Source: Patescibacteria group bacterium
Lineage (GTDB): Bacteria; Patescibacteriota; Patescibacteriia; UBA10025; JAHIVO01
Assembly: GCA_028718605.1 (NCBI GenBank)
Contig: JAQULM010000001.1
Coordinates: 193,699-257,698 of the forward strand
Length of the DNA stretch: 64,000 bases
Reading direction: 5' to 3'
Below the pieces are notes generated by a model that searched no databases, was not told the origin of the DNA, and saw only the letters and a list, made by a program, of their open reading frames with translations. A program made the position numbers and the translations under genes. Of the stretch, positions 3,855 to 61,509 are shown piece by piece; the first letter of the stretch is position 1; each line of letters opens with the position of its first letter.

Positions 3855-4214
3855 TTAACGTGCCAATCGTAACAATAATTCGATGACGCCTGTTATATTA
3901 TGATAAACATCTCTATTGGTAATTCTAATGATTCGAATACCGAGCGATTCAATAAACTTCTGGCGTTGGTTATCATATACGATCGTTTGTTTTGATAGAA
4001 AATGTGACGGCCCATCAACCTCGATGCCAAGCCTAAGCCGGGCACAATAAAAATCAATCACATACCCGCTAACACTATACTGCCGGCGGAACTTACAACC
4101 AGCCAACTGCTTGCCTTTCAAATAACGCCACAGCACAATCTCAGCGCGTGGTGCTGAATTCCTCAAGCCCTGGCGTCGGCGCTTCATCGAATGTGTGTTA
4201 TAGATGACTGTCAT
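3855..4214 (-). CDS. DUF559 family endonuclease-domain protein (Vsr/very-short-patch-repair-like fold)
   Basis: The protein shows the DUF559 signature ...EIVLWRYLKGKQLAGCKFRRQYSVSGYVIDFYCARLRLGIEVDGPSHF...IRIIRITNRDV. An RBS aaaggggagg lies upstream of the ATG. Confidence 0.75.
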   Translation of the reverse strand: MTVIYNTHSMKRRRQGLRNSAPRAEIVLWRYLKGKQLAGCKFRRQYSVSGYVIDFYCARLRLGIEVDGPSHFLSKQTIVYDNQRQKFIESLGIRIIRITNRDVYHNITGVIELLLRLAR

Positions 4215-4265
4215 AGTGCCGGTAGCCTTACCTCCCCTTTAAACTAACTTGGTGATTCCTCCGCC

Positions 4266-4440
4266 GTCTGTTCTCTTCCCCTCCTCATTTCGAGGAGGGG
4301 AAAACGTGACAAGTATGCTATGCCACAGCGTTCGTAGAGAGGTGGTGGAGTTATCCTCCCCTCCTTAATTGAGGAGGGGAAAAAGCGATACATGAGCCTT
4401 ACCTGAACGTCAGGAGGGGGGTGGTTGAGCCATGCCCCCC
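4266..4440. repeat. Locus A of a dispersed palindromic repeat family: two or more units of a CCCCTCCTC-loop-GAGGAGGGG hairpin followed by the conserved block GTTCGTAGAGRGGTGGTKG
   Basis: An 11-bp stem hairpin sits at 4266-4292 and a second hairpin at 4347-4370. The block cgttcgtagagaggtggtggag is at 4320-4340, and degenerate gaggggggtggttgagcc at 4403-4420. The same family recurs at 8941-9170. Confidence 0.7.
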
Positions 4441-4603
4441 AACGCATACAACAACTCCCCACGTAGGTTATGGGGAGGTTACTGCTTCCACTTTATCATT
4501 ACCTATTACAATAATCAATATCCCCTAAACAAGCATTGACACCCCCAATTGCGTGTGATAAGGTGGCGTATTCAATATCCACAGCCCCTCAACACTTCAT
4601 ATT

Positions 4604-4638
4604 TGACAAAACCGGTATATATTACGTATAATGTGGGC
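4604..4638 (+). promoter_or_regulatory. Sigma70-like promoter TTGACA-N18-TATAAT upstream of the secreted-protein gene
   Basis: The sequence is tttgacaaaaccggtatatattacgtataatg. Confidence 0.55.
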
Positions 4639-4689
4639 GCTTACGAACAATTTAATACATATCATTTAACCCCAATTAATAAAGGAACA

Positions 4690-5487
4690 ATGACTATGAA
4701 AAACGCATCATTGCGTCTAACCAACCCCCTCCCCATGGTCGTAGCGGGAGTGTTTATGTTATCTCTAGCAGTTTTACTTTTTATCCCCCAGCAAGTTGCG
4801 GCAAAGGTAGAAACTCCAAAGATTGATATTTGTCATGCCGAGAGTTCTGATGTAAATCCATATAATTCTTTATCAGTTGATAAAAATGCAACTGCAGGTG
4901 GTCATGATGACCACGATGGGGGTATTTATCCCGCGAATCCGTGGGGCGATATTATCCCTTCATATCAATACAGCTACCAGGCTTGGGAAGTAATTGGCTC
5001 TCATCAAGGATGTCCAACAGATAGTGCGTTATATACATCATGGGATTCAAGTAAACCTTGCAAAAAGAAAATAAGTGGACATTGGAAATATACTGATTAT
5101 ATTAACATTGACGATTATGGCTGGGTAACACATGAGGATCAATATCCTGGTAAAAACTGGACTACTGAAGGACAAGAAATTTACAACAACGGTTGTGTAA
5201 TACCCCCTGTATATTCAGTTGAATCCTATGAAAGTGATTATTCAACAGTAAAAAATGACTTCTATCAGGGCGAGATCGTTTATGGAAAAGGTTGGACTGA
5301 ATTCGTAGGTAATAAAGATTTACGACTTGAATTTAAAAATCCTAACGGAGATTCCGTGGAAATTTGCGGCGAAAGGAAAGGGACGTGGTCGCAATGTCCT
5401 CATAACCTAAGTAATGATGCCCTTACTGGAACTTGGACAATTGAATTACAGCAGAAAGGTGATAAATATTGGAGCTGGAGTGATTAG
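4690..5487 (+). CDS. AT-rich secreted or membrane-anchored protein module (signal/anchor helix MVVAGVFMLSLAVLLFIP). It is in-frame with, and probably the N-terminal part of, the downstream LPXTG protein, interrupted by a TAG
   Basis: The ATG at 4690 is preceded by aaaggaac. The N-terminal hydrophobic helix is followed by AAKVETPK. The ORF ends at TAG 5485-5487, in the same frame as ORF 5542-8865. Confidence 0.6.
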   Translation: MTMKNASLRLTNPLPMVVAGVFMLSLAVLLFIPQQVAAKVETPKIDICHAESSDVNPYNSLSVDKNATAGGHDDHDGGIYPANPWGDIIPSYQYSYQAWEVIGSHQGCPTDSALYTSWDSSKPCKKKISGHWKYTDYINIDDYGWVTHEDQYPGKNWTTEGQEIYNNGCVIPPVYSVESYESDYSTVKNDFYQGEIVYGKGWTEFVGNKDLRLEFKNPNGDSVEICGERKGTWSQCPHNLSNDALTGTWTIELQQKGDKYWSWSD

Positions 5488-5541
5488 AGCTGGCACTACT
5501 ATTGGAATGTCAAAGCAACGGACACTTTCAATGTTAATGAA

Positions 5542-8500
5542 TTGCCTCCAGCAACCATCATTGCCTCAAAAATCGTCTGCGACAGCGAATCCGATCTGCC
5601 AAACTGGGGCGGAGCTCAAGGTGACCAATCCATCAATGCAAATACGGCAACAGACTTTGTCAATGCCAGTAATGGGAAATGCCATATTAATCTTGATTGG
5701 ACATTCCAGTATAAAACTGGCGATGTAGCCAATCCTGATGATAACTCCGGCGTTGCGAGTGACTGGTCTACTCCCTTCTCATCATCGGTGCCAGTTGATG
5801 TAAGCGCTTCCAATCTTATTAAAGTGCGTGAAATCTGGAACGATCAATATATCCCATTTACAGGTGACAACGACAACAAGAATGTAAGTGCCGAGTTTTA
5901 CTGCGCAAATGATAACTACAAATACGACAATTTCGACTATGTCACTAGCGCGCAGCCAGGCCAGACCTACTACTGCGTCGCGTTTAATGCACTCGCAGCT
6001 ATTTGCGGCGATGGTGAACTAGACCCGGCAACCGAACAATGCGACAATGGACCGGATAATACTGACGATGCATGCACAGCCGAATACGGCGATACATGTG
6101 ATTATTGCACAGCCTCATGCCAATCAGTCACAATCACTGGTCCGCATTGTGGTGACGGCATAGTCAATGGCGAAGAACAATGCGATGACGATAATTCAAT
6201 CAATAATGACGCCTGCACTAATCAATGCACATTCCCTACCGGCTCAATCACCGGTACGAAATACGAAGACATTAACGCGAGTGGTGATCGCGATACCATC
6301 GGAGACACGAGCAATACCGAACCAGGCCTCTCTGGCTGGAATATATATCTCTACCAAGGAGAAGGCCCTTCAATCGCTAATACAACCACGGATGCCAAGG
6401 GCGATTATGAATTCCTTGGTTTGACTCCGGGCGAGTACAGGGTTTGCGAAGACAACAAGCCAGATTGGCACCACACAGATCCGGGTATGAATGACAACCC
6501 GTGTAAAACCGTGACAGTAACAGCTGGCCAGGCGGTCACAGCGAATTTCGGTAACTTCCATGACGCTTGGATAGAAGGTTACAAATACGAAGATGCCAAT
6601 GGCAACGGGCAGTACGACGATGGTGAGCAATACATCAATGGTTGGCCAATTCGGTTATATAGATTAGAACAAAACAAGAAAGGTGGCACGTCCTGGGACA
6701 ATACCGCTGGCCAGGGAACTGGCTCGGTCTGGCCGGAAACCGGCAGGTATGCCTGGACTGATGTGCCTGGAACGTATTATGTTTGTGAGGTTGCCAAGCA
6801 CGACTTCGACGGTTCCGACTGGATCCAGACACAGCCGGCTGCTGACCAGGGCGTCGCGAACCAATCCGGCATGGAAGATGAAGCGTTTCGCTGTTATGAA
6901 GTCGTCATCGATGAATCCGGGGAGCAGAATACGCACCTCGATTTCGGTAATCAACGGATCGTCCCAACATACGACGTCCACGGCTACAAGTGGAACGACA
7001 TTGACGAGGATGGGTACTTTGATTGCGAAAATACCTTCTCCATTCAAACACTCACAAACGTGAACACGCTCCCCCCAGTGGCGCAATTATGCGAGCCGAA
7101 ACTCTGCGATTGGACCATCCAGCTCAAGCAGAATGGCGAAGTCCTCGATGAGACTACAACCTCGTGCGAAGACAGCCGCGATTACGGCTGGTACTGGTTC
7201 GAGGACCTTCCGGCCGGAACATACGAAATTTGTGAAGTCCAGCAGGAAGGCTGGGACCAAACGTACCCCGAGAACTGCCATAACGTGACGTTGCCGCTGG
7301 CCCAGGAAACGCTACGGGCAACTGTCATTTCTGACAATTTCGTCGAAGACGCCCCTGAGTTTGACTTTGGCAACCACCAAATCCCACCGGTTCCCGTTGT
7401 CGACATCACCAAGACCGTCACGGTAAATGGCGAGGAAACAGCCACGGCGCATGAGGGCGACTCGCTCGTCTATACGATTACTGTTTCCAATACGGGCAAC
7501 GCGACCGCGTATGACTTGAGAATCAGTGACGACTTGCCGGCAAACGTTACATTCGGAGAGGATGCGTTCAATCCCGCGCCTGGAGTCAATGACGGCACGA
7601 CTGCGGTTTGGGATCCGATCGACCTGCCCGCTGGCAATGATTATGTCATCACGATCACCGGCACCGTGAACGCAGGCCTCGAATATGGCAGCGCTGATAG
7701 CCTTGAGGTCGTCAATACGGCGACCGTCGAGCAATTCGAATTCAACCAAGAGGTTTCTTTCTGGCAAAAACTGCTCGGCGTGAAAGTCGCACATGCGCAA
7801 GCAGCAGCAGCGCCGATTAACTTTATCCACCAGGCAGCGGTTGCCGCGGTGAATGTCCTGAAGCCTGTTCCCGCTATCTGCGGCAATGGCACGATAGAGC
7901 AAGCAGCTGGCGAGGAATGCGATGACGGTGCGCTGAACAATAAGCCATGCACGGCAGGAGTCGGCCAGACCTGTACGTACTGCTCGTCAACCTGCACCAC
8001 ATTCACCGTGACTGGCGAAGAACCAACACCGGTGCTCGCTGTCCTGAAGACCGTTGACGATTCATTAACGAACCCCGGCCAAGTTGTTACCTATACAGTC
8101 ACGATCAGCAATTCCGGCAATGCGGCGGCGAAAGACGTGAAGCTCGTTGACACCCTGCCAGCAGGGCTCACCTTCGCTGACAAAAAAGGCAAAACAACCG
8201 GCGACACCGAGAAAACCTGGACTTGGAAAACGCTCGCCGCTGGCGATGACGTGACGGTCACCTACGATGCAGTAATCGACTCAAATACCGGCGCAGATGT
8301 ATATGATAACCTCGCAACAGTTACCGCAAAGAATTTCGACGGTTCAGTGACTGCCAAAGCGTCGACCGAGGTCCGCATCCCTGTCGTGCTCGGGGACGAG
8401 ACGCCTGAACTCGAAATTACGAAGACAGCAAAGCAGACATACGTTAATCCCGGCGGCACCGTTACCTACACGGTTACCGTGAAGAACGTTGGTGATGCGC

Positions 8501-25761: not shown

Positions 25762-25807
25762 ATTATATTAAATTTTACCACGTTTCTTGGCTTGTGGAAA
25801 AGGCTAT

Positions 25808-25836
25808 TGACGCAGCAGGGTGTGCGTGGTAGAGTC
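25808..25836 (+). promoter_or_regulatory. Sigma70-like promoter TTGACG-N17-TAGAGT upstream of the tRNA-Pro region
   Basis: The sequence is ggctattgacgcagcagggtgtgcgtggtagagtcaac. Confidence 0.4.
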
Positions 25837-25978
25837 AACAGTCGTCTGAACAAACCCCTTTATTTCAAGCGCGTTTCCTGGTACTATACTACTATTGAAC
25901 CTTGGTTGGCCATTAACAATGCACGGGGTAACCACGCGACACGAGCGTACGAGCGATGCCCCGGTTCGAATCTTTTTC

Positions 25979-26014
25979 CGGGGATTAGCGCAGTTGGCTA
26001 GCGCGCACGCTTCG
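25979..26014 (+). other. Partial copy (36 nt) of the tRNA-Pro 5' half, running from the acceptor stem to the middle of the anticodon
   Basis: It is identical to nt 1-36 of the tRNA at 26079 and is followed by an unrelated CCCCGCA...TGCGGGG hairpin. Confidence 0.8.
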
Positions 26015-26078
26015 CCCCGCAACCTCTCGCTTTGTTCGGATGCGGGGTAAAGGTGCAGACGCGCTAGAGCTGGCTTGC

Positions 26079-26155
26079 CGGGGATTAGCGCAGTTGGCTA
26101 GCGCGCACGCTTCGGGTGCGTGAGGTCGCGAGTTCGAGTCTCGCATCCCCGACCA
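26079..26155 (+). tRNA. tRNA-Pro (anticodon CGG), CCA encoded
   Basis: Manual fold gives acceptor CGGGGAT/ATCCCCG, D-stem GCGC/GCGC, anticodon stem CACGC/GCGTG with loop TTCGGGT, and T-arm GCGAG-TTCGAGT-CTCGC. The discriminator is A, followed by CCA. Confidence 0.85.
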
Positions 26156-26233
26156 GCCAGCTCTATTGACAGCATAATAAAAATTGGTGCGCTTGTCCCG
26201 CATACGCGAGTGAAGCGAGCGTTGTGCGGGATG

Positions 26234-26264
26234 AGGTCGCGAGTTCGAGTCTCGCATCCCCGAC
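26234..26264 (+). other. Partial copy (31 nt) of the tRNA-Pro 3' part, running from the variable loop to the discriminator
   Basis: The sequence aggtcgcgagttcgagtctcgcatccccgac is identical to the tRNA 3' portion. It is preceded by a TCCCGCA...TGCGGGA hairpin and has no matching 5' acceptor strand. Confidence 0.75.
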
Positions 26265-26478
26265 AAAGGACTTGAAAAACGTGCCGGCAGGCACCGTTGG
26301 AGCAGTGCTCAATTGCTCCAGCGATGCCCGCTGGTAAACTACATTTCTTCCAAACCTCAAACAGAAAGAAGGGTCCCACTTGATCTTTCTACAATTTCCT
26401 CACGCTCCTCCTTTGTTACTATAGGTGTCCACAGAAACGAAAATGCGAAACCTGTAGATAAATCATTGGAGGAATCCC

Positions 26479-26682
26479 ATGTGTCAGTGTCATCATAAAC
26501 TCTCACACCTTATCGGCGAAGGTGATCCGCGTGGCAAGCGCGTCGTGATACACCCGCGGAAAGGGGCACAGTTCGGAGCTACGATCGAGAAAGTCGATCA
26601 TGGCAGTAACCACGCCATCGTACGGACGGTCGATGGCATCCGTTCTGTGGCGCTTACAACCGCTGCGATGCCTCATCGATAG
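26479..26682 (+). CDS. Small hypothetical protein (67 aa) with a strong RBS
   Basis: GGAGGA lies 6 nt upstream of the ATG. No homology was recognised. Confidence 0.35.
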   Translation: MCQCHHKLSHLIGEGDPRGKRVVIHPRKGAQFGATIEKVDHGSNHAIVRTVDGIRSVALTTAAMPHR

Positions 26683-37669: not shown

Positions 37670-37714
37670 GGGGTATTTCCGGCCGGTTTCTTAATTATAA
37701 AATTCCCGGCTTTT

Positions 37715-37785
37715 CTCCGAGGCTTGGAATCGAACCAAGATTACGTGATCCAGAGTCACGTGTCCTACCATTAGACGACCTCGGA
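37715..37785 (-). tRNA. tRNA-Gln (anticodon CUG), CCA not encoded
   Basis: Manual fold gives acceptor TCCGAGG/CCTCGGA, D-stem GTCT/GGAC, anticodon stem CGTGA/TCACG with loop CTCTGGA, and T-arm CTTGG-TTCGATT-CCAAG. Confidence 0.85.
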
Positions 37786-37884
37786 AAGAAGCCGGCAATC
37801 TCGATGAAACGGAACCAATCCATACCGAGAGCTGGCAGTCATTGTAAACAAAAACCGGTCGCTCTGCAATACCCCATGCGGCGA

Positions 37885-57728: not shown

Positions 57729-58373
57729 TTAATAGCCTAAAACTTCTTTCACCAGGACCATGTGCAGCTTCCTCCCTTTCGTCGGGGGACGCTCGATAAT
57801 CAGGATTTCACTGATGACACTCCCCGGTGCACCCAAGCTCTTCATGTGCTCATCCACCAGCGGAAAGACGTACTCCCGAAGCCGCTTCATACCCTCGGGA
57901 AGGGTCGGCACGATTTTCTGCGCGCCGACGACCCAGATGACGTTGTCACTCGTATACGCGTACGACGGCAGCTGGCTGCCCGTAGCCGACCCGATAACCA
58001 TCTGTCCGTCCTCGGTCAGCGCATGGACGCTCGCGAGGAAGTAATCGGCCAGCACGCTCTTCTTGCGCAGTACGTTCTGCTTCACCGGGTCCTTTTCAGC
58101 AACAATATCGTTTTTCAGGTTCTTCCACGGGTGGCCGCCTGATTTCAGCACATCGACAAACCCGATCTGCTCCAATGTCAGCGAGCTGCCGGTCATCACT
58201 TCCGCACCCGCGGGAATCAGGCCCCGCACCGTCCCAAGCGCCTCCTCTTTGTTTTTTACAACGTGAACGATCACGTTTTTCTCCTCCAACGCGCGCTGTG
58301 TTTTATTGATAATGTCTTTTGTTGGTACTGCATCGTATTTCATAATGATTTTCTTTAGTGAATTAGCTTCCAC
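57729..58373 (-). CDS. LUD-domain (LutC/YkgG-like) protein
   Basis: At 214 aa, the segments ...VHVVKNKEEALGTV...GAEVMTGSSLTLEQIG...VIGSATGSQL... fit the family. Confidence 0.45.
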   Translation of the reverse strand: MEANSLKKIIMKYDAVPTKDIINKTQRALEEKNVIVHVVKNKEEALGTVRGLIPAGAEVMTGSSLTLEQIGFVDVLKSGGHPWKNLKNDIVAEKDPVKQNVLRKKSVLADYFLASVHALTEDGQMVIGSATGSQLPSYAYTSDNVIWVVGAQKIVPTLPEGMKRLREYVFPLVDEHMKSLGAPGSVISEILIIERPPTKGRKLHMVLVKEVLGY

Positions 58374-58395
58374 TCAATCTCCCGCGGACTGAAAA

Positions 58396-58896
58396 TTATT
58401 TTTCTGCTTGCGCCTCTTTCTTGCTGGGGTTGCTACTTTTCTTTTTTTCATCAACTAAACCATTTAATGCATCTAAAGTAGCGGCCGATTGCCAATATTC
58501 AATATTAACTGAATGTAAATATGTATTTGCCAATTTTGTATTTATTATTTCCATATCGTATGAAACGGTTTTTTCTAACTCAGAGATATGGGCAATTAAA
58601 TTTCGAAATTTATTTAAATTTTCAAGTTGCTTATTTAATTCCTTATCATCAAAAATTTTTTTAATTATCTTAACTTTTTGTATAAATCTCAGCTCGGCAA
58701 GTACATCTTTTAAAGTTTGTTTCTTCTCTAATAAGTCGGGATTATTATCGACGTTTAATTGAATAATAAGATCCATTACACTTTCAACAAATGCGTGATC
58801 CTTAAGAACCTGTATATCAATCTCCTTCAGGTATATTTTTTGTTTTTCGATGAGCTTATTATACACTCTATCGAAGGCTTCATTAAGATTTGTCAT
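58396..58896 (-). CDS. Hypothetical all-alpha protein with a HEPN-like Rx4H motif (KFRNLIAH), inside an AT-rich island
   Basis: Local GC is roughly 30 percent against more than 50 percent in the flanks. The motif is R-N-L-I-A-H. Confidence 0.45.
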   Translation of the reverse strand: MTNLNEAFDRVYNKLIEKQKIYLKEIDIQVLKDHAFVESVMDLIIQLNVDNNPDLLEKKQTLKDVLAELRFIQKVKIIKKIFDDKELNKQLENLNKFRNLIAHISELEKTVSYDMEIINTKLANTYLHSVNIEYWQSAATLDALNGLVDEKKKSSNPSKKEAQAEK

Positions 58897-58932
58897 AAAT
58901 ATTTATAAATTACGTATATTTTATTGTTTGTT

Positions 58933-59466
58933 TTACCACTGAACAGTAAGACTATGCCTGTTCATAAATTTTTCTAGAGTTTCGTCCCTATAGTAACGCC
59001 CAATAATATTAGCAATACCCACCTGAATTGGAGTATACCAATAACTAAAATTTGCTTTTTCACTCTGCCCACTTATTAACTTTCTTTCTGGAACAGGAAT
59101 AAAATACCTACCTCCGTCCAAAGAAATGAACTCTACTGACACTAATGCCTGACCGTTTACCTTTATTTTCACCGCTCGAACATGCTTTGTTTCATCAGGG
59201 TAATCTTTCATCCAGCCCTCCTTCGTCGTCCAATTATGGCCTACTTCATCGATCTCAATAACAAATTCAGGATGGGTTTCATACTGCCAGTTTGACTCGT
59301 CTCTACTAATATTTATTTTTTTCCACTTTTTGGTTCTCTTTAGGTAATACTTAACCCTTTTAATGGGACTAATATAGGTAATTATTGCAAGATAGCTTCC
59401 AATAATTGTAGCGATTAATCCTAAAATTGTTACTATCCACGACATCCAATTCATACATTCCCCCAA
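58933..59466 (-). CDS. Hypothetical N-terminally membrane-anchored protein, the first gene of the AT-rich island
   Basis: The TM helix is WMSWIVTILGLIATIIGSYLAIITYI. The gene is AT-rich and lies 36 nt upstream of the HEPN-like gene. Confidence 0.45.
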   Translation of the reverse strand: MGECMNWMSWIVTILGLIATIIGSYLAIITYISPIKRVKYYLKRTKKWKKINISRDESNWQYETHPEFVIEIDEVGHNWTTKEGWMKDYPDETKHVRAVKIKVNGQALVSVEFISLDGGRYFIPVPERKLISGQSEKANFSYWYTPIQVGIANIIGRYYRDETLEKFMNRHSLTVQW

Positions 59467-59586
59467 AGAGCCCGCCCGGCTTTGCTTGAGGCAATACCGA
59501 TAGCGGACGGGCGGGCCCCAAACTGAGAACCCGCCCTTTGCGTATTAACTACATTGAAATTGTAAATTAGTTTTCATGGCAGCATA

Positions 59587-61509
59587 CTACTTCTTTACTT
59601 CCTCATACTGCGCGTCGACAGGGCCTTTATCCTGTTTCGGGGGCTCTTGCTTTGACCCGCCTGGTTGCGCGCCTCCTGAGCTCTGCGAAGGACCTCCTTT
59701 GGGCGGTTCTTGCTTCTGGTACATCGCCTGCCCGATCTTTTGGATTGTCTGCGACAGCTCATCCGTCGCTTTCTTGATTTCAGCCATGTCATCCTTGTCC
59801 TTCACTTTTTTCAGCGCTTCAATCTTTTCCTCAACCTCTTTCTTCACTTTCGCATCGAGCTTGTCGCCGGCATCCTTCACCGCTTTTTCGGCGGTGTAGG
59901 TCAGGGTTTCCGCCTGGTTGCGCGCATCGATCAGGTCTTTCTTTTTCTTGTCCTCGTCCGCGTGCTTGGACGCGTCCTGCTTCATTTTCTCCACTTCATC
60001 TTTTGACAAGCCGGATGACGCGGTAATGGTGATGGACTGCTCCTTGCCCGTCGCGCGGTCTTTTGCTTTGACATTGAGGATGCCGTTTGCATCAATGTCG
60101 AACGTAACCTCAACCTGCGGTACCCCGCGTGGTGACGGCGGAATGCCGGACAGGATAAACTTTCCCAAGGTCTTGTTGTCAGGCGCCATAGGCCGTTCGC
60201 CCTGCAGCACGTGGATTTCAACGCTTGTCTGGTTGTCAGCAGCCGTCGAAAACACCTGCGACTTGGACGTCGGGATGGTGGTATTGCGTTCAATCAATGG
60301 GGTAGAAACATTGCCCAGTGTTTCGATGCCGAGCGTCAGCGGCGTCACGTCGAGCAGCAGGACGTCTTTTACGTCCCCTTGCAGCACGCCTGCCTGCACT
60401 GCGGCACCGAGCGCCACGACTTCGTCCGGGTTTACGCCGATATGCGGTTTCTTGCCAAAGAATTTTTCAACCGTCTCGAGCACTTTTGGCATTCTCGTCA
60501 TGCCGCCAACCATGACGACCTCGTTGATATCTGTCGTCTTCACGTTCGCGTCAGCGAGCGCCTTTTTGACCGGCTCAATCGTTTTTTCAATGAGATCGCC
60601 AACCAAGTCTTCCAGTTTCGCCCGCGTGAGCTTCACGGTAAGATGCTTGGGCCCGGAAGCGTCAGTGGTGATAAACGGCAGGTTAATCTCAGTTTCCGTG
60701 GTTGTGGACAACTCGATCTTTGCCTTTTCGCCCTGCTCTTTGAGGCGCTGCAATGCCATCGGGTCTTTGCCCAGGTCAATGCCCTGGTCTTTCTTGAATT
60801 CCTCGATCAGCCAGTCAATGATGCGCTTGTCAAAATCATCGCCGCCGAGATGTGTATCGCCGTTCGTGGACTTCACCTCAACCGTATCTGATGCGACGTC
60901 GAGAATCGAAATATCGAACGTGCCGCCGCCCAGGTCGTACACGGCGATCTGCTGGTTCTTCTTTTTCTCGAAGCCGTAGGCGAGTGCAGCCGCGGTTGGT
61001 TCATTAATGATACGTTTTACCTTCAAGCCTGCGATCTCGCCCGCGTCCTTAGTCGCCTGGCGCTGGGAGTCATCAAAATACGCCGGTACGGTGATGACCG
61101 CTTCTTCGATTTTCTCGCCCAATTTCGCTTCCGCGTCCGCTTTCAGCTTCTGGAGAATCATTGCCGACACTTCCTGCGGCGTGTACTCCTTGCCGGCCAT
61201 GATGACCTTCACGCCTTCGCCGGCATGGACGATTTTGTACGGCATGGTTTTCACGTCACGCTGTACCTCATCGTCGCTCCAGTGGCGGCCGATCAAGCGT
61301 TTGATCGAAAAAATCGTGTTTTCATAATTTGTGACAGCCTGCCGCTTGGCAATCTGCCCGACCATGCGCTCGCCTGCCTTGTTGATCGCAACAACAGACG
61401 GCGTGGTCCTGTTCCCTTCTTTGTTCTCGAGCACTTTTGGCTCGCCTCCCTCGATGATTGCCATCGCGGAGTTGGTCGTGCCGAGATCGATTCCTAGAAT
61501 TTTTGACAT
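59587..61509 (-). CDS. dnaK: Chaperone DnaK (Hsp70)
   Basis: The motifs [26 protein letters not shown] and [11 protein letters not shown] are present, together with the acidic C-terminus. Confidence 0.97.

What the first reader, a model, noticed from the sequence alone, without database searches (positions are those of the whole stretch)
25808..26264. tRNA-Pro(CGG) flanked by a 5'-half copy upstream and a 3'-part copy downstream, with breakpoints in the anticodon and variable loop
A 36-nt exact copy of tRNA-Pro nt 1-36 (ending inside the anticodon) lies 65 nt upstream of the intact gene. A 31-nt exact copy of the 3' part (variable loop to discriminator) lies 80 nt downstream. Each partial copy abuts a similar CCCGCA...TGCGGG hairpin (26015-26047 and 26196-26230), and the two hairpin regions are partly complementary to each other. 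Such partial duplications are the classic footprints of site-specific integrase activity at tRNA genes, whose attB cores commonly fall in the anticodon or T loops. No integrase or mobile element is present within the flanking kilobases, so the footprints may be old excision scars. A promoter at 25808-25836 could drive the whole region. This tRNA encodes CCA, whereas tRNA-Gln at 37715 does not.
Basis: seen in the sequence. Interest (0 to 1): 0.55.

Follow-up and report, generated by a model that had tools for sequence, protein, structure and literature searches.

The report
tRNA-Pro gene nested inside split tRNA-Pro gene
In this uncultured Patescibacteria genome, a 217-base hairpin-ended segment carrying a complete proline tRNA gene sits inside an older copy of the same gene, whose two halves remain on either side; it is a curious rearrangement scar, not a new system.

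Summary
tRNA-Pro(CGG) lies at 26079-26155. An exact copy of its nt 1-36 lies at 25979-26014. An exact copy of nt 43-75 lies at 26232-26264 (33 nt, not 31). Each copy abuts a CCCGCA...TGCGGG hairpin, and the two hairpin regions are inverted homologues (0 of 1000 shuffles score as high).

The window is a Patescibacteria MAG. Unitigs from two read sets stop exactly at the repeat borders, so the repeats are in the reads.

Relatives keep tRNA-Pro(CGG) at this syntenic position. Seven have a plain gene. Others carry different tRNA-Pro debris, including L032, where a different tRNA-Pro allele sits between remnants of the resident allele.

The two fragments are complementary, 1-36 and 43-75, with only 6 nt missing. 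The outer 3' fragment sits where the resident tRNA ends in relatives. The 217 nt between the fragments have mirror-image ends. I therefore read the locus as one resident tRNA-Pro gene split at anticodon position 35/36 by a palindromic segment carrying a full tRNA-Pro. I do not read it as two integrase att scars.

No integrase, intron model, target duplication or second copy was found. The source and mobilisation of the insert are unknown. Interest is moderate.

The parts
25807..25835 (+). Promoter-like site TTGACG-17-TAGAGT upstream of the whole tRNA-Pro region
   Evidence: Consensus scan. By eye, the same GGAAAAGnCTATTGAC-17-TAnnnT arrangement lies upstream of tRNA-Pro in L027, L029, L030, L106 and L108. 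No other + strand promoter-like site lies between it and the inner tRNA.
25924..25973 (+). Leader hairpin CGGGG...CCCCG (25924-25963), followed by a T-loop-like GTTCGAATCT (25964-25973). It may be older tRNA-Pro debris.
   Evidence: Read from the sequence. GTTCGAATCT is 90% identical to the tRNA's T-loop segment (D3). Similar acceptor-stem-only hairpins lie upstream of tRNA-Pro in L024, L027, L029 and L032. Similarity of this stretch to the tRNA is not significant on the + strand (p = 0.15).
25979..26014 (+). Outer 5' fragment, an exact copy of tRNA-Pro nt 1-36 that ends at standard position 35/36. I read it as the 5' part of the interrupted resident gene.
   Evidence: D1; blastn E 3.9e-16; nhmmer 29.5 bits against a tRNA-Pro profile built from relatives.
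26015..26231 (+). The 217-nt insert, made of X1 (with hairpin hp1), the complete tRNA-Pro with its leader-trailer helix, and X2 (with hairpin hp2). Its two ends are imperfect inverted repeats.
   Evidence: X1 against the reverse complement of X2 scores 30.5, with 0 of 1000 shuffles as high (z = 4.6). X1 and X2 have no homologue elsewhere in the window or in 105 loci from relatives.
26015..26047 (+). Hairpin hp1, CCCCGCA...TGCGGGG, abutting the 5' fragment
   Evidence: Pattern search; folds at -14.5 kcal/mol; I6.
26065..26075 (+). Left arm of a perfect 11-bp leader-trailer helix (TAGAGCTGGCT) that extends the acceptor stem of the inner tRNA
   Evidence: I1; exact reverse-complement match at 26155-26165; duplex -20.1 kcal/mol, z = -4.2.
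26079..26155 (+). Intact tRNA-Pro(CGG) with encoded CCA, taken to be the functional gene
   Evidence: ARAGORN; Rfam tRNA model 62.9 bits.
26155..26165 (+). Right arm of the leader-trailer helix (AGCCAGCTCTA)
26196..26231 (+). Hairpin hp2, TCCCGCA...TGCGGGA, abutting the 3' fragment. It is an inverted homologue of hp1.
   Evidence: folds at -20.3 kcal/mol. The hp1:hp2 duplex is -43.5 kcal/mol, against -34.8 for the two separate hairpins.
26232..26264 (+). Outer 3' fragment, an exact copy of tRNA-Pro nt 43-75 (the last two anticodon-stem bases, variable loop, T arm, 3' acceptor strand, discriminator and one C). I read it as the 3' part of the interrupted resident gene.
   Evidence: D2; blastn E 2.1e-14; nhmmer. 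With the end of hp2 it can form an acceptor-like helix (I10).
26284..26334 (+). Long hairpin 20 nt after the outer 3' fragment. It matches in position the hairpin that follows the tRNA 3' end in relatives.
   Evidence: I2; alignment of downstream regions with L105 and L032.

Best explanation
The locus is one ancestral (resident) tRNA-Pro(CGG) gene broken once in its anticodon loop. The break falls after standard position 35, and nt 37-42 of the linear sequence were lost. The break holds a 217-bp segment (26015-26231) that carries a complete tRNA-Pro(CGG) unit.

That unit is hairpin-shaped. The tRNA sits at its centre, flanked by a perfect 11-bp leader-trailer helix. About 35-44 nt of imperfect inverted repeat (hp1 and hp2) form its two ends.

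How it works now (inferred). Transcription starts at the conserved resident promoter (25807-25835). It runs through the dead 5' fragment and hp1 into the inner tRNA. The inner tRNA is cut out of its leader-trailer helix and is the only functional product. The outer 5' and 3' fragments are inert remnants.

The join was non-conservative. It shows a 6-nt deletion, no target duplication and no overlap identity. It therefore looks like break repair or illegitimate capture of a palindromic tRNA unit, not integrase or DDE-transposase chemistry.

The 36-nt and 33-nt direct repeats would let replication slippage or RecA collapse the structure back to a plain tRNA gene. This suggests the arrangement is evolutionarily young, or that the repeats are kept identical by gene conversion.

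Shown: the anatomy, that the repeats are in the reads, variability among relatives, and the positional homology of the outer fragments. Inferred: the direction of the event (insert into resident gene), the mechanism of joining, and the lack of function of the fragments.
For: 1. Complementary breakpoints. The 5' copy is nt 1-36 and the 3' copy is nt 43-75. They do not overlap, and only 6 nt are missing.

2. Mirror-image ends. X1 and the reverse complement of X2 are significantly alike over about 44 nt (0 of 1000 shuffles as high). In direct orientation they are not (p = 0.42).

3. Positional homology. In relatives the order is tRNA 3' end, 18-20 nt, long hairpin, CAAACCTnAAAC, small ORF. In the window the outer 3' fragment sits 20 nt before that hairpin, and its trailer begins CA.A as in L105, L032 and L037. 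The outer fragments also keep a short leader-trailer pairing like that of these relatives (I3).

4. Empty sites. L021, L022, L031, L037, L105, L106 and L108 have a plain tRNA-Pro(CGG) at the same syntenic position, divergent from the F420-ligase-like gene.

5. An independent parallel. Compared with L105 and L037, L032 keeps both flanks, the first 5 nt and the last 16-20 nt of the resident A-type tRNA. Between them it holds about 240 nt containing a different tRNA-Pro allele. L107 has the new allele followed by a decayed resident allele with its own leader.

6. The sharp change from 100% identity to no detectable similarity at both junctions fits recombination joints rather than decay. X1 and X2 against the tRNA give p = 0.17-0.44.

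7. The inner unit has the leader-trailer helix that other tRNA genes of this lineage also have. It is therefore a complete tRNA transcription and processing unit.

8. The outer halves cannot make a tRNA. ARAGORN with introns allowed does not call one, and the 3' strand of the anticodon stem is absent.
Against: No donor copy of X1 or X2 was found anywhere: not in the window, not in 105 loci from relatives, and the tRNA halves are absent from viral contigs.

The inner and outer tRNA segments are 69/69 identical, while the two ends of the insert are only about 75% alike. That calls for a same-species donor or later gene conversion.

No target-site duplication, no nuclease or transposase gene, and no second copy in 64 kb were found, so mobility of the segment is not shown.

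The closest available relative is only 67% identical in the neighbouring protein. No near-isogenic empty site exists.

The L032 parallel has different breakpoints and no demonstrable homology of the insert to the window's.

The direction of the event rests on modest positional evidence.
Confidence: 0.5

Rival explanations
1. Two old att scars. One element integrated by a tyrosine integrase into the 3' part of tRNA-Pro. Another integrated into the 5' part. Both were later deleted down to 63-78 nt.
For: Direct repeats made of a tRNA portion running to the gene's end are the classic product of integration (PMC9897764). The 3' block runs through the discriminator. Relatives carry 3'-terminal tRNA-Pro fragments downstream of the gene (L029, L030, L032, L107). 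In L032 and L107 the fragment differs in allele from the functional gene.
Against: It needs two independent events whose remnants happen to be mirror-image homologues and whose breakpoints happen to be complementary. The 3' block lacks the anticodon stem-loop, which would be the crossover core. Duplication of a 5' block is atypical. Six target nucleotides are lost. No integrase lies among the scanned ORFs between about 12.3 and 42.6 kb. In L107 and L032 the functional tRNA is wholly of the new allele, not a 5'-old/3'-new chimera as integration would give.
Confidence: 0.12
2. Tandem duplication followed by decay. Three tandem tRNA-Pro copies arose by slippage. The first kept only its 5' part and the third only its 3' part. 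Gene conversion from the middle copy keeps those parts identical.
For: L030 has a true tandem repeat with a 174-nt period. Each unit starts with the last 18 nt of tRNA-Pro and is followed by the same trailer. L107 has a functional copy followed by a decayed copy. Partial copies 100-170 nt from other tRNA genes occur in L055, L063 and L077.
Against: In the window the sequence after each partial copy is unrelated to the sequence after the corresponding point in the full gene. The junction-flanking sequences are inverted, not direct, homologues. The complementary retention of 1-36 and 43-75 is unexplained.
Confidence: 0.15
3. A functional nested precursor RNA. The outer half-tRNA pieces and the hp1:hp2 duplex would be a selected scaffold, a long processing stem with tRNA-like side arms. 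It would control maturation or stability of tRNA-Pro, or yield a tRNA-like small RNA.
For: The 321-nt region folds into a fully nested structure: outer acceptor stem, hairpins, 11-bp helix, inner cloverleaf. Its energy is -150.8 kcal/mol, z = -5.45. The hp1:hp2 duplex is -43.5 kcal/mol. Leader-trailer helices are a real feature of tRNA genes in this lineage, with structure kept and sequence changed: tRNA-Gln in the window and in L022, tRNA-Pro in L027. Direct repeats this close should be unstable unless maintained.
Against: The fold follows trivially from the copies being identical to the tRNA. No relative shares the architecture, so there is no covariation. No Rfam family matches. The outer pieces lack an anticodon arm.
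Confidence: 0.12
4. Assembly artefact or strain chimera in the MAG.
For: The source is a metagenome-assembled genome, and repeats of 33-37 nt can confuse short k-mers.
Against: The junction k-mers must exist in reads. Independent Logan unitigs from two runs break exactly at the repeat borders on both sides. A second, 651-kb contig carries the same neighbouring protein.
Confidence: 0.03

Closest known systems
Partial tRNA gene copies left by integrative elements (attL/attR direct repeats at tRNA genes; reviewed in PMC9897764; sublocation classes of Williams 2002, from my own knowledge)
   Same: Exact direct repeats of a tRNA portion flank non-tRNA DNA beside an intact tRNA gene. The locus varies among relatives.
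   Different: Both a 5' and a 3' portion are duplicated, with complementary breakpoints. The enclosed DNA is 63-78 nt on each side, with no integrase. Six target nucleotides are lost. The enclosed DNA has mirror-image ends and carries a whole tRNA.
Group I intron-containing tRNA genes of Patescibacteria, inserted at position 35/36 (PMC13011429)
   Same: Same phylum and same interruption point in the anticodon loop (35/36). The interruption is of similar size, about 217 nt.
   Different: No group I intron model matches at E <= 10. The would-be 5' exon ends in G rather than U. The exons do not reconstitute a tRNA, because the 3' strand of the anticodon stem is missing. The insert contains a complete tRNA.
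tRNA-linked tandem repeats of the E. coli tyrT/rtT type (from my own knowledge: 178-bp repeats each starting with the tRNA-Tyr 3' end)
   Same: A tRNA 3' end is repeated a short distance downstream of the gene. Relative L030 shows exactly this, with a 174-nt period.
   Different: In the window the sequence after the copy differs from that after the gene. There is also a 5' copy upstream. The spacers are inverted homologues.
MITE- or REPIN-like elements with inverted hairpin ends
   Same: A short non-coding segment is bounded by imperfect inverted repeats, each of which is itself a hairpin.
   Different: No target-site duplication. No second copy in 64 kb or in relatives' loci. No RAYT or transposase gene seen. 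The cargo is a tRNA gene.
Split and intron-nested archaeal tRNA genes (Nanoarchaeum split tRNAs; box C/D sRNA inside the tRNA-Trp intron; from my own knowledge)
   Same: tRNA halves are separated in the DNA, with complementary sequences next to the break. A functional RNA lies between the halves.
   Different: The organism is bacterial. No bulge-helix-bulge motif is evident. The halves cannot be joined into a working tRNA. An intact copy of the same tRNA is present.

Membership tests
Integrase att-site duplication at a tRNA gene | A single identity block that runs from the crossover site to one end of the tRNA and is present at both ends of the element | tested here: inconclusive
   The 3' block (nt 43-75) fits. 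A second, 5' block (nt 1-36) is also present, which one event does not produce.
Integrase att-site duplication at a tRNA gene | An integrase gene or element cargo between or near the repeats | tested here: not met
   Only 63 and 78 nt lie between the repeats. The Pfam scans of ORFs between about 12.3 and 42.6 kb show purine-metabolism, housekeeping and unannotated genes, with no recombinase.
Integrase att-site duplication at a tRNA gene | Conservative recombination, with no loss of target nucleotides and the crossover core (anticodon or T stem-loop) inside the repeat | tested here: not met
   Nt 37-42 are missing from the outer copies. The 3' block starts after the anticodon stem-loop.
Group I intron in a tRNA | A match to a group I intron covariance model | tested here: not met
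   cmscan of 25840-26360 at E <= 10 finds only the tRNA and weak hairpin-type matches. The same holds for L001 at E <= 1.
Group I intron in a tRNA | Exons that join into a complete tRNA, with the 5' exon ending in U | tested here: not met
   The joined fragments lack the 3' strand of the anticodon stem. The 5' fragment ends ...CTTCG.
TIR-bounded MITE | Terminal inverted repeats | tested here: met
   CCCGCA-ACCTCTCGCTT... at the left end against the reverse complement of the right end; 0 of 1000 shuffles score as high.
TIR-bounded MITE | Target-site duplication | tested here: not met
   The junctions read ...CTTCG|CCCCGCA and TGCGGGA|TGAGG.... Six nucleotides of target are deleted instead.
TIR-bounded MITE | Several copies in the genome | tested here: inconclusive
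   No other copy in the 64-kb window. The rest of the genome could not be searched (searches failed).
tRNA-linked tandem repeat (tyrT/rtT type) | A repeat unit made of the tRNA 3' end plus the same trailer, head to tail | tested here: not met
   The trailers differ right after GAC: CCAGCC after the gene, AAAGGA after the copy. The feature is met in relative L030.
Split or permuted tRNA processed at a bulge-helix-bulge motif | Halves that reconstitute a full tRNA after removal of complementary flanks | tested here: not met
   Six nucleotides are missing. No join between 26215 and 26232 gives a credible tRNA, except at strongly lowered ARAGORN thresholds.

The most novel reading that the evidence does not exclude
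The 217-nt segment would belong to a class of non-autonomous, hairpin-shaped tRNA-gene cassettes. Such a cassette would invade the anticodon loop of its cognate tRNA gene, use the resident promoter, and supply its own replacement tRNA. That would drive recurrent allele replacement of tRNA-Pro(CGG) in this Patescibacteria clade. L032, L107 and L027 would be older events of the same kind. The GIY-YIG gene beside tRNA-Pro in L024 would be a candidate for the nuclease that makes the break.
Probability: 0.12. Interest if true: 0.75.

Novelty: new variant of a known kind. Interest (0 to 1): 0.4.

Why it matters
If the nested reading is right, a tRNA gene can be replaced from the inside. The incoming copy lands in the old gene, takes over its promoter, and leaves two half-gene fossils.

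That would explain some of the orphan tRNA halves that confuse tRNA annotation in reduced genomes.

It would also document turnover of a single-copy tRNA gene in Patescibacteria, a phylum already known for interrupted tRNA and rRNA genes.

Practically, the two fragments should be annotated as pseudogene pieces. They should not be used as evidence for a prophage or genomic island.

The leader-trailer helices seen beside several tRNA genes here may matter more generally for how these organisms process tRNA precursors.

Tried and rejected
- **Genome-contig scan with the neighbouring F420-ligase-like protein.** It returned only relatives at 33-37% identity, mostly gammaproteobacterial, which were of no use. 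The source genome's lineage is not among close GTDB representatives.
- **Viral contig scans for the exact 5' and 3' tRNA blocks.** No hits, so there is no sign of a phage carrying this tRNA.
- **X1 and X2 as degenerate tRNA copies** (tandem-decay or Russian-doll idea, suggested by eye). Local alignments are not better than shuffles, p = 0.17-0.44. nhmmer's extension of the 3' copy into hp2 adds almost no score. Rejected as unsupported.
- **A shared GCAGCGATGCGCGAG-like motif or a common insert family** next to partial tRNA copies in other Patescibacteria loci. All-against-all alignment shows only L030 with L037 (34 nt, z = 19.8) and the window's X1 with the reverse complement of X2 (z = 4.6). 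Nothing links the window to the other loci.
- **The border motif CCCGCN...NGCGGGA shared with L032.** In L032 the right-hand GCGGGA is probably the mutated 5' strand of the remnant's T stem. I do not use it as evidence.
- **The 11-bp inverted repeat as a transposon end.** Rejected, because tRNA-Gln in the window and in L022, and tRNA-Pro in L027, L105 and L037, have comparable helices with unrelated sequences.
- **Group I intron, tmRNA, Y RNA-like and other Rfam families.** No credible match.
- **The outer gene as an intron-containing or joinable tRNA.** ARAGORN does not call it.
- **Fetching more of the same contig** to count copies of the insert. This failed because my ORF starts did not match the recorded gene calls.
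- **Literature searches for nested tRNA genes and tRNA-linked repeats.** They gave only the general integration-fragment paper and the Patescibacteria intron paper.
Full report
**What is there**

ARAGORN finds two tRNA genes in the window: tRNA-Pro(CGG) at 26079-26155 and tRNA-Gln(CTG) at 37714-37786 on the minus strand. Rfam's tRNA model confirms both.

- Around tRNA-Pro, the repeat finder gives an exact copy of nt 1-36 at 25979-26014, or 37 nt with the preceding C.
- It also gives an exact copy of nt 43-75 at 26232-26264.
- Their blastn E-values within the window are 3.9e-16 and 2.1e-14, and no other copy exists in the 64 kb.
- ARAGORN puts the anticodon at linear positions 35-37. The 5' copy therefore ends after the second anticodon base, which is standard position 35/36.
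- The 3' copy starts with the last two bases of the anticodon stem and runs through the discriminator and one C.
- The pattern CCCGCA-N(15-40)-TGCGGG occurs only at 26016-26046 and 26197-26230, against 0.17 expected. Each occurrence abuts one partial copy.
- A promoter-like site lies at 25807-25835.

**Extra anatomy**

- The intact tRNA is flanked by a perfect 11-bp inverted repeat, TAGAGCTGGCT at 26065-26075 and AGCCAGCTCTA at 26155-26165. It extends the acceptor stem.
- The segment left of the tRNA (X1, 26015-26078) and the reverse complement of the segment right of it (X2, 26156-26231) are significantly alike over about 44 nt. The score is 30.5, the maximum of 1000 shuffles is 25, and direct orientation gives p = 0.42.
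- The 217 nt between the two partial copies are therefore a long imperfect palindrome with the tRNA at its centre.
- As RNA, the whole region folds into a nested structure at -150.8 kcal/mol, z = -5.45.
- hp1 and hp2 pair with each other more stably (-43.5 kcal/mol) than they fold separately (-34.8 kcal/mol in total).

**Where it comes from, and whether it is real**

The neighbouring protein is encoded on contig JAQTSE010000003.1 of MAG GCA_028711455.1. Its source annotation calls it a Patescibacteria group bacterium.

Logan unitigs (k = 31) from two sequencing runs carry the same flanking genes. From the left they stop at 26008, the first 31-mer shared by the two 5' copies. From the right they start at 26235, the first 31-mer unique to the outer 3' copy. 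The repeats are therefore in the reads, and an assembly artefact is unlikely.

**Surroundings**

The flanks encode an F420-0:gamma-glutamyl-ligase-like protein, a CYTH protein, MgsA, adenylosuccinate lyase and synthetase, GMP synthase, adenosine deaminase, IMP dehydrogenase, DnaX and similar proteins. No recombinase, transposase or phage domain was found among the ORFs scanned between about 12.3 and 42.6 kb.

**Relatives**

The genome-representative scan gave nothing close. A protein search followed by contig look-ups and one metagenome scan gave loci whose ligase-like protein is 54-67% identical.

In thirteen of them tRNA-Pro(CGG) lies at the same place, divergent from the ligase gene and between it and the adenylosuccinate lyase gene where that is present.

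- **Plain tRNA:** L021, L022, L031, L037, L105, L106 and L108.
- **L030:** a 174-nt tandem repeat, each unit starting with the last 18 nt of the tRNA.
- **L029 and L027:** 3'-end fragments, and hairpins made only of acceptor-stem sequence.
- **L024:** an 85-residue GIY-YIG protein gene (Pfam E 2.4e-17) between such a hairpin and the tRNA.
- **L107:** a functional tRNA of one allele, followed 82 nt later by the 3' end of another allele. By eye, a recognisable leader and a D-arm trace of that second allele precede that 3' end.
- **L032 (most telling):** it shares both flanks with L105 and L037. Where they have a 74-nt tRNA, it has the first 5 nt of that tRNA, about 240 nt containing a different tRNA-Pro allele, and then the last 16-20 nt of the resident tRNA with its trailer.

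The locus is thus a hot spot where new tRNA-Pro copies arrive and old ones are left as fragments.

**Which copy is the resident one**

In relatives the tRNA 3' end is followed after 18-20 nt by a long hairpin, then CAAACCTnAAAC, then a small conserved ORF. In the window the outer 3' fragment ends at 26264, which is 20 nt before the corresponding hairpin (26284-26334). Its trailer starts CA.A, as in L105, L032 and L037.

The outer fragments also have a short leader-trailer pairing like those relatives (I3). The outer pieces therefore occupy the ancestral position, and 26015-26231 is the added DNA.

**Interpretation**

A single resident gene, cut once, explains four things together:
- the presence of both a 5' and a 3' fragment;
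- their complementary extent (1-36 and 43-75, with 6 nt lost);
- the mirror-image ends of the intervening DNA;
- the positional homology of the outer fragments.

Two integrase scars would need two events whose remnants are inverted homologues by chance. They would also need a 5'-directed duplication, a 3' identity block that omits the anticodon stem-loop, and loss of target bases. In L107 and L032 the working tRNA is wholly of the new allele, not the chimera that integration would make.

Tandem duplication with decay does not fit either. Similarity drops from 100% to background exactly at the junctions, and the junction flanks are inverted rather than direct repeats.

The insert is not a group I intron. 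No model matches at E <= 10, the 5' fragment ends in G, and the joined fragments lack the 3' strand of the anticodon stem. The break does coincide with the 35/36 site favoured by Patescibacteria tRNA introns (PMC13011429). I regard that as a probable coincidence.

The 11-bp helix around the inner tRNA is not a transposon end. tRNA-Gln in the window has a 14-position leader-trailer extension of which 12 pair. tRNA-Gln in L022, and tRNA-Pro in L027, L105 and L037, have equivalents with unrelated sequences. It looks like a lineage-typical precursor helix, which makes the inner unit a complete tRNA gene unit.

**What remains unknown**

- The donor and the joining mechanism are unknown. There is no target duplication and no second copy in 64 kb.
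- X1 and X2 have no homologue in 105 related loci. The exact tRNA halves have no viral hit.
- The 69/69 identity of inner and outer tRNA parts contrasts with about 75% identity between the insert's two ends. That points to a same-species donor or to gene conversion.
- Direct repeats of 36 and 33 nt, 100 and 111 nt apart, should collapse easily. The structure is therefore either young or maintained.
- A functional nested precursor cannot be excluded, but no covariation or conservation supports it.

**Verdict**

The sequence observation is confirmed. The integrase-scar reading is partly supported: there is rearrangement at a variable tRNA locus, but not by the proposed mechanism.

The best description is a tRNA-Pro gene nested inside the split remains of the resident tRNA-Pro gene. 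This is an unusual variant of the known class of tRNA gene fragments created by DNA insertion. Interest is moderate. The more novel possibility is a self-complementing tRNA cassette that targets its own gene, and I give it about a one-in-eight chance.

Noticed in passing
window 37702-37799 (tRNA-Gln, minus strand); L022 around 145-245; L027, L105 and L037 around tRNA-Pro: Long leader-trailer helices extend the acceptor stem of several tRNA genes in this Patescibacteria clade. The structure is kept while the sequence differs between genomes. Window tRNA-Gln: ATTGCCGGCTTCTT|tRNA|GAAAAGCCGGGAAT. L022 tRNA-Gln: TATCGTTATTTTTT|tRNA|AAAGATAACGATA. Duplex z-scores are -2.8 to -5.7, against about 0 for the other tRNAs examined. 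This may reflect an unusual precursor-processing route.
   Followed up: partly
L030, reverse strand, about 1-357 (downstream of tRNA-Pro): A tandem repeat with a 174-nt period. Each unit starts with the last 18 nt of tRNA-Pro (CAAGTCCCGCCACCCCGA), and the contig ends inside the second unit. The layout resembles the E. coli tyrT/rtT repeats.
   Followed up: partly
L030 and L037, downstream of tRNA-Pro: A 34-nt element, GGGACGAGAAARCCGCAGCGATGCGCGAGTTSCC, is 94% identical between two different genomes (z = 19.8). It has no Rfam match and its function is unknown.
   Followed up: partly
L024, reverse strand, about 30-320: An 85-residue GIY-YIG nuclease gene (Pfam E 2.4e-17) lies between an acceptor-stem-only hairpin (CGGGGTATCCCCG) and tRNA-Pro(CGG). 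This is in the closest available relative of the window's locus. It is a candidate homing-type nuclease acting at this tRNA gene.
   Followed up: partly
L055 2017-2215, L063 2008-2199, L077 4164-4420: Other tRNA genes in Patescibacteria metagenome contigs (Pro-UGG, Arg-UCU, Ser) also have exact 15-20-nt copies of their 5' or 3' end 100-170 nt away. About 5 of the 36 tRNAs examined show this. The intervening sequences are unrelated to each other.
   Followed up: partly
window 26345-26682 and the matching regions of L027, L029, L032, L105, L106 and L107: A conserved small ORF (67 aa in the window, 26479-26682, no Pfam hit) follows tRNA-Pro in all relatives. It is preceded by a conserved CAAACCTnAAAC...AGGAG leader, possibly a regulatory 5' UTR or leader peptide.
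   Followed up: no
window 25795-25870 and relatives: A conserved block lies upstream of tRNA-Pro: GGAAAAGnCTATTGAC-17-TAnnnT, followed by AACAGTCGT..AAACCCTTTATTTCA and a TGnTAnnAT extended -10-like element. This suggests tandem promoters or a protein-binding site shared across genomes that are otherwise only about 60% identical in the neighbouring protein.
   Followed up: no
window 4001-6000 and 58001-60000: Two low-GC islands (0.44 and 0.415, against about 0.52 elsewhere). Their ORFs, for example 4549-5487 and 58396-58896, have no Pfam match.
   Followed up: no
L107 4127-4519: An IS200-like Y1 transposase fragment (Pfam E 2.3e-07) lies about 2 kb from the tRNA-Pro locus of a relative that carries a decayed second tRNA-Pro copy.
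   Followed up: no
window 26100-26196: A weak match to the Y RNA-like (YrlA) model: 15.4 bits, E = 2.5, far below the family's threshold. It is most probably caused by the tRNA-like part of that model.
   Followed up: no
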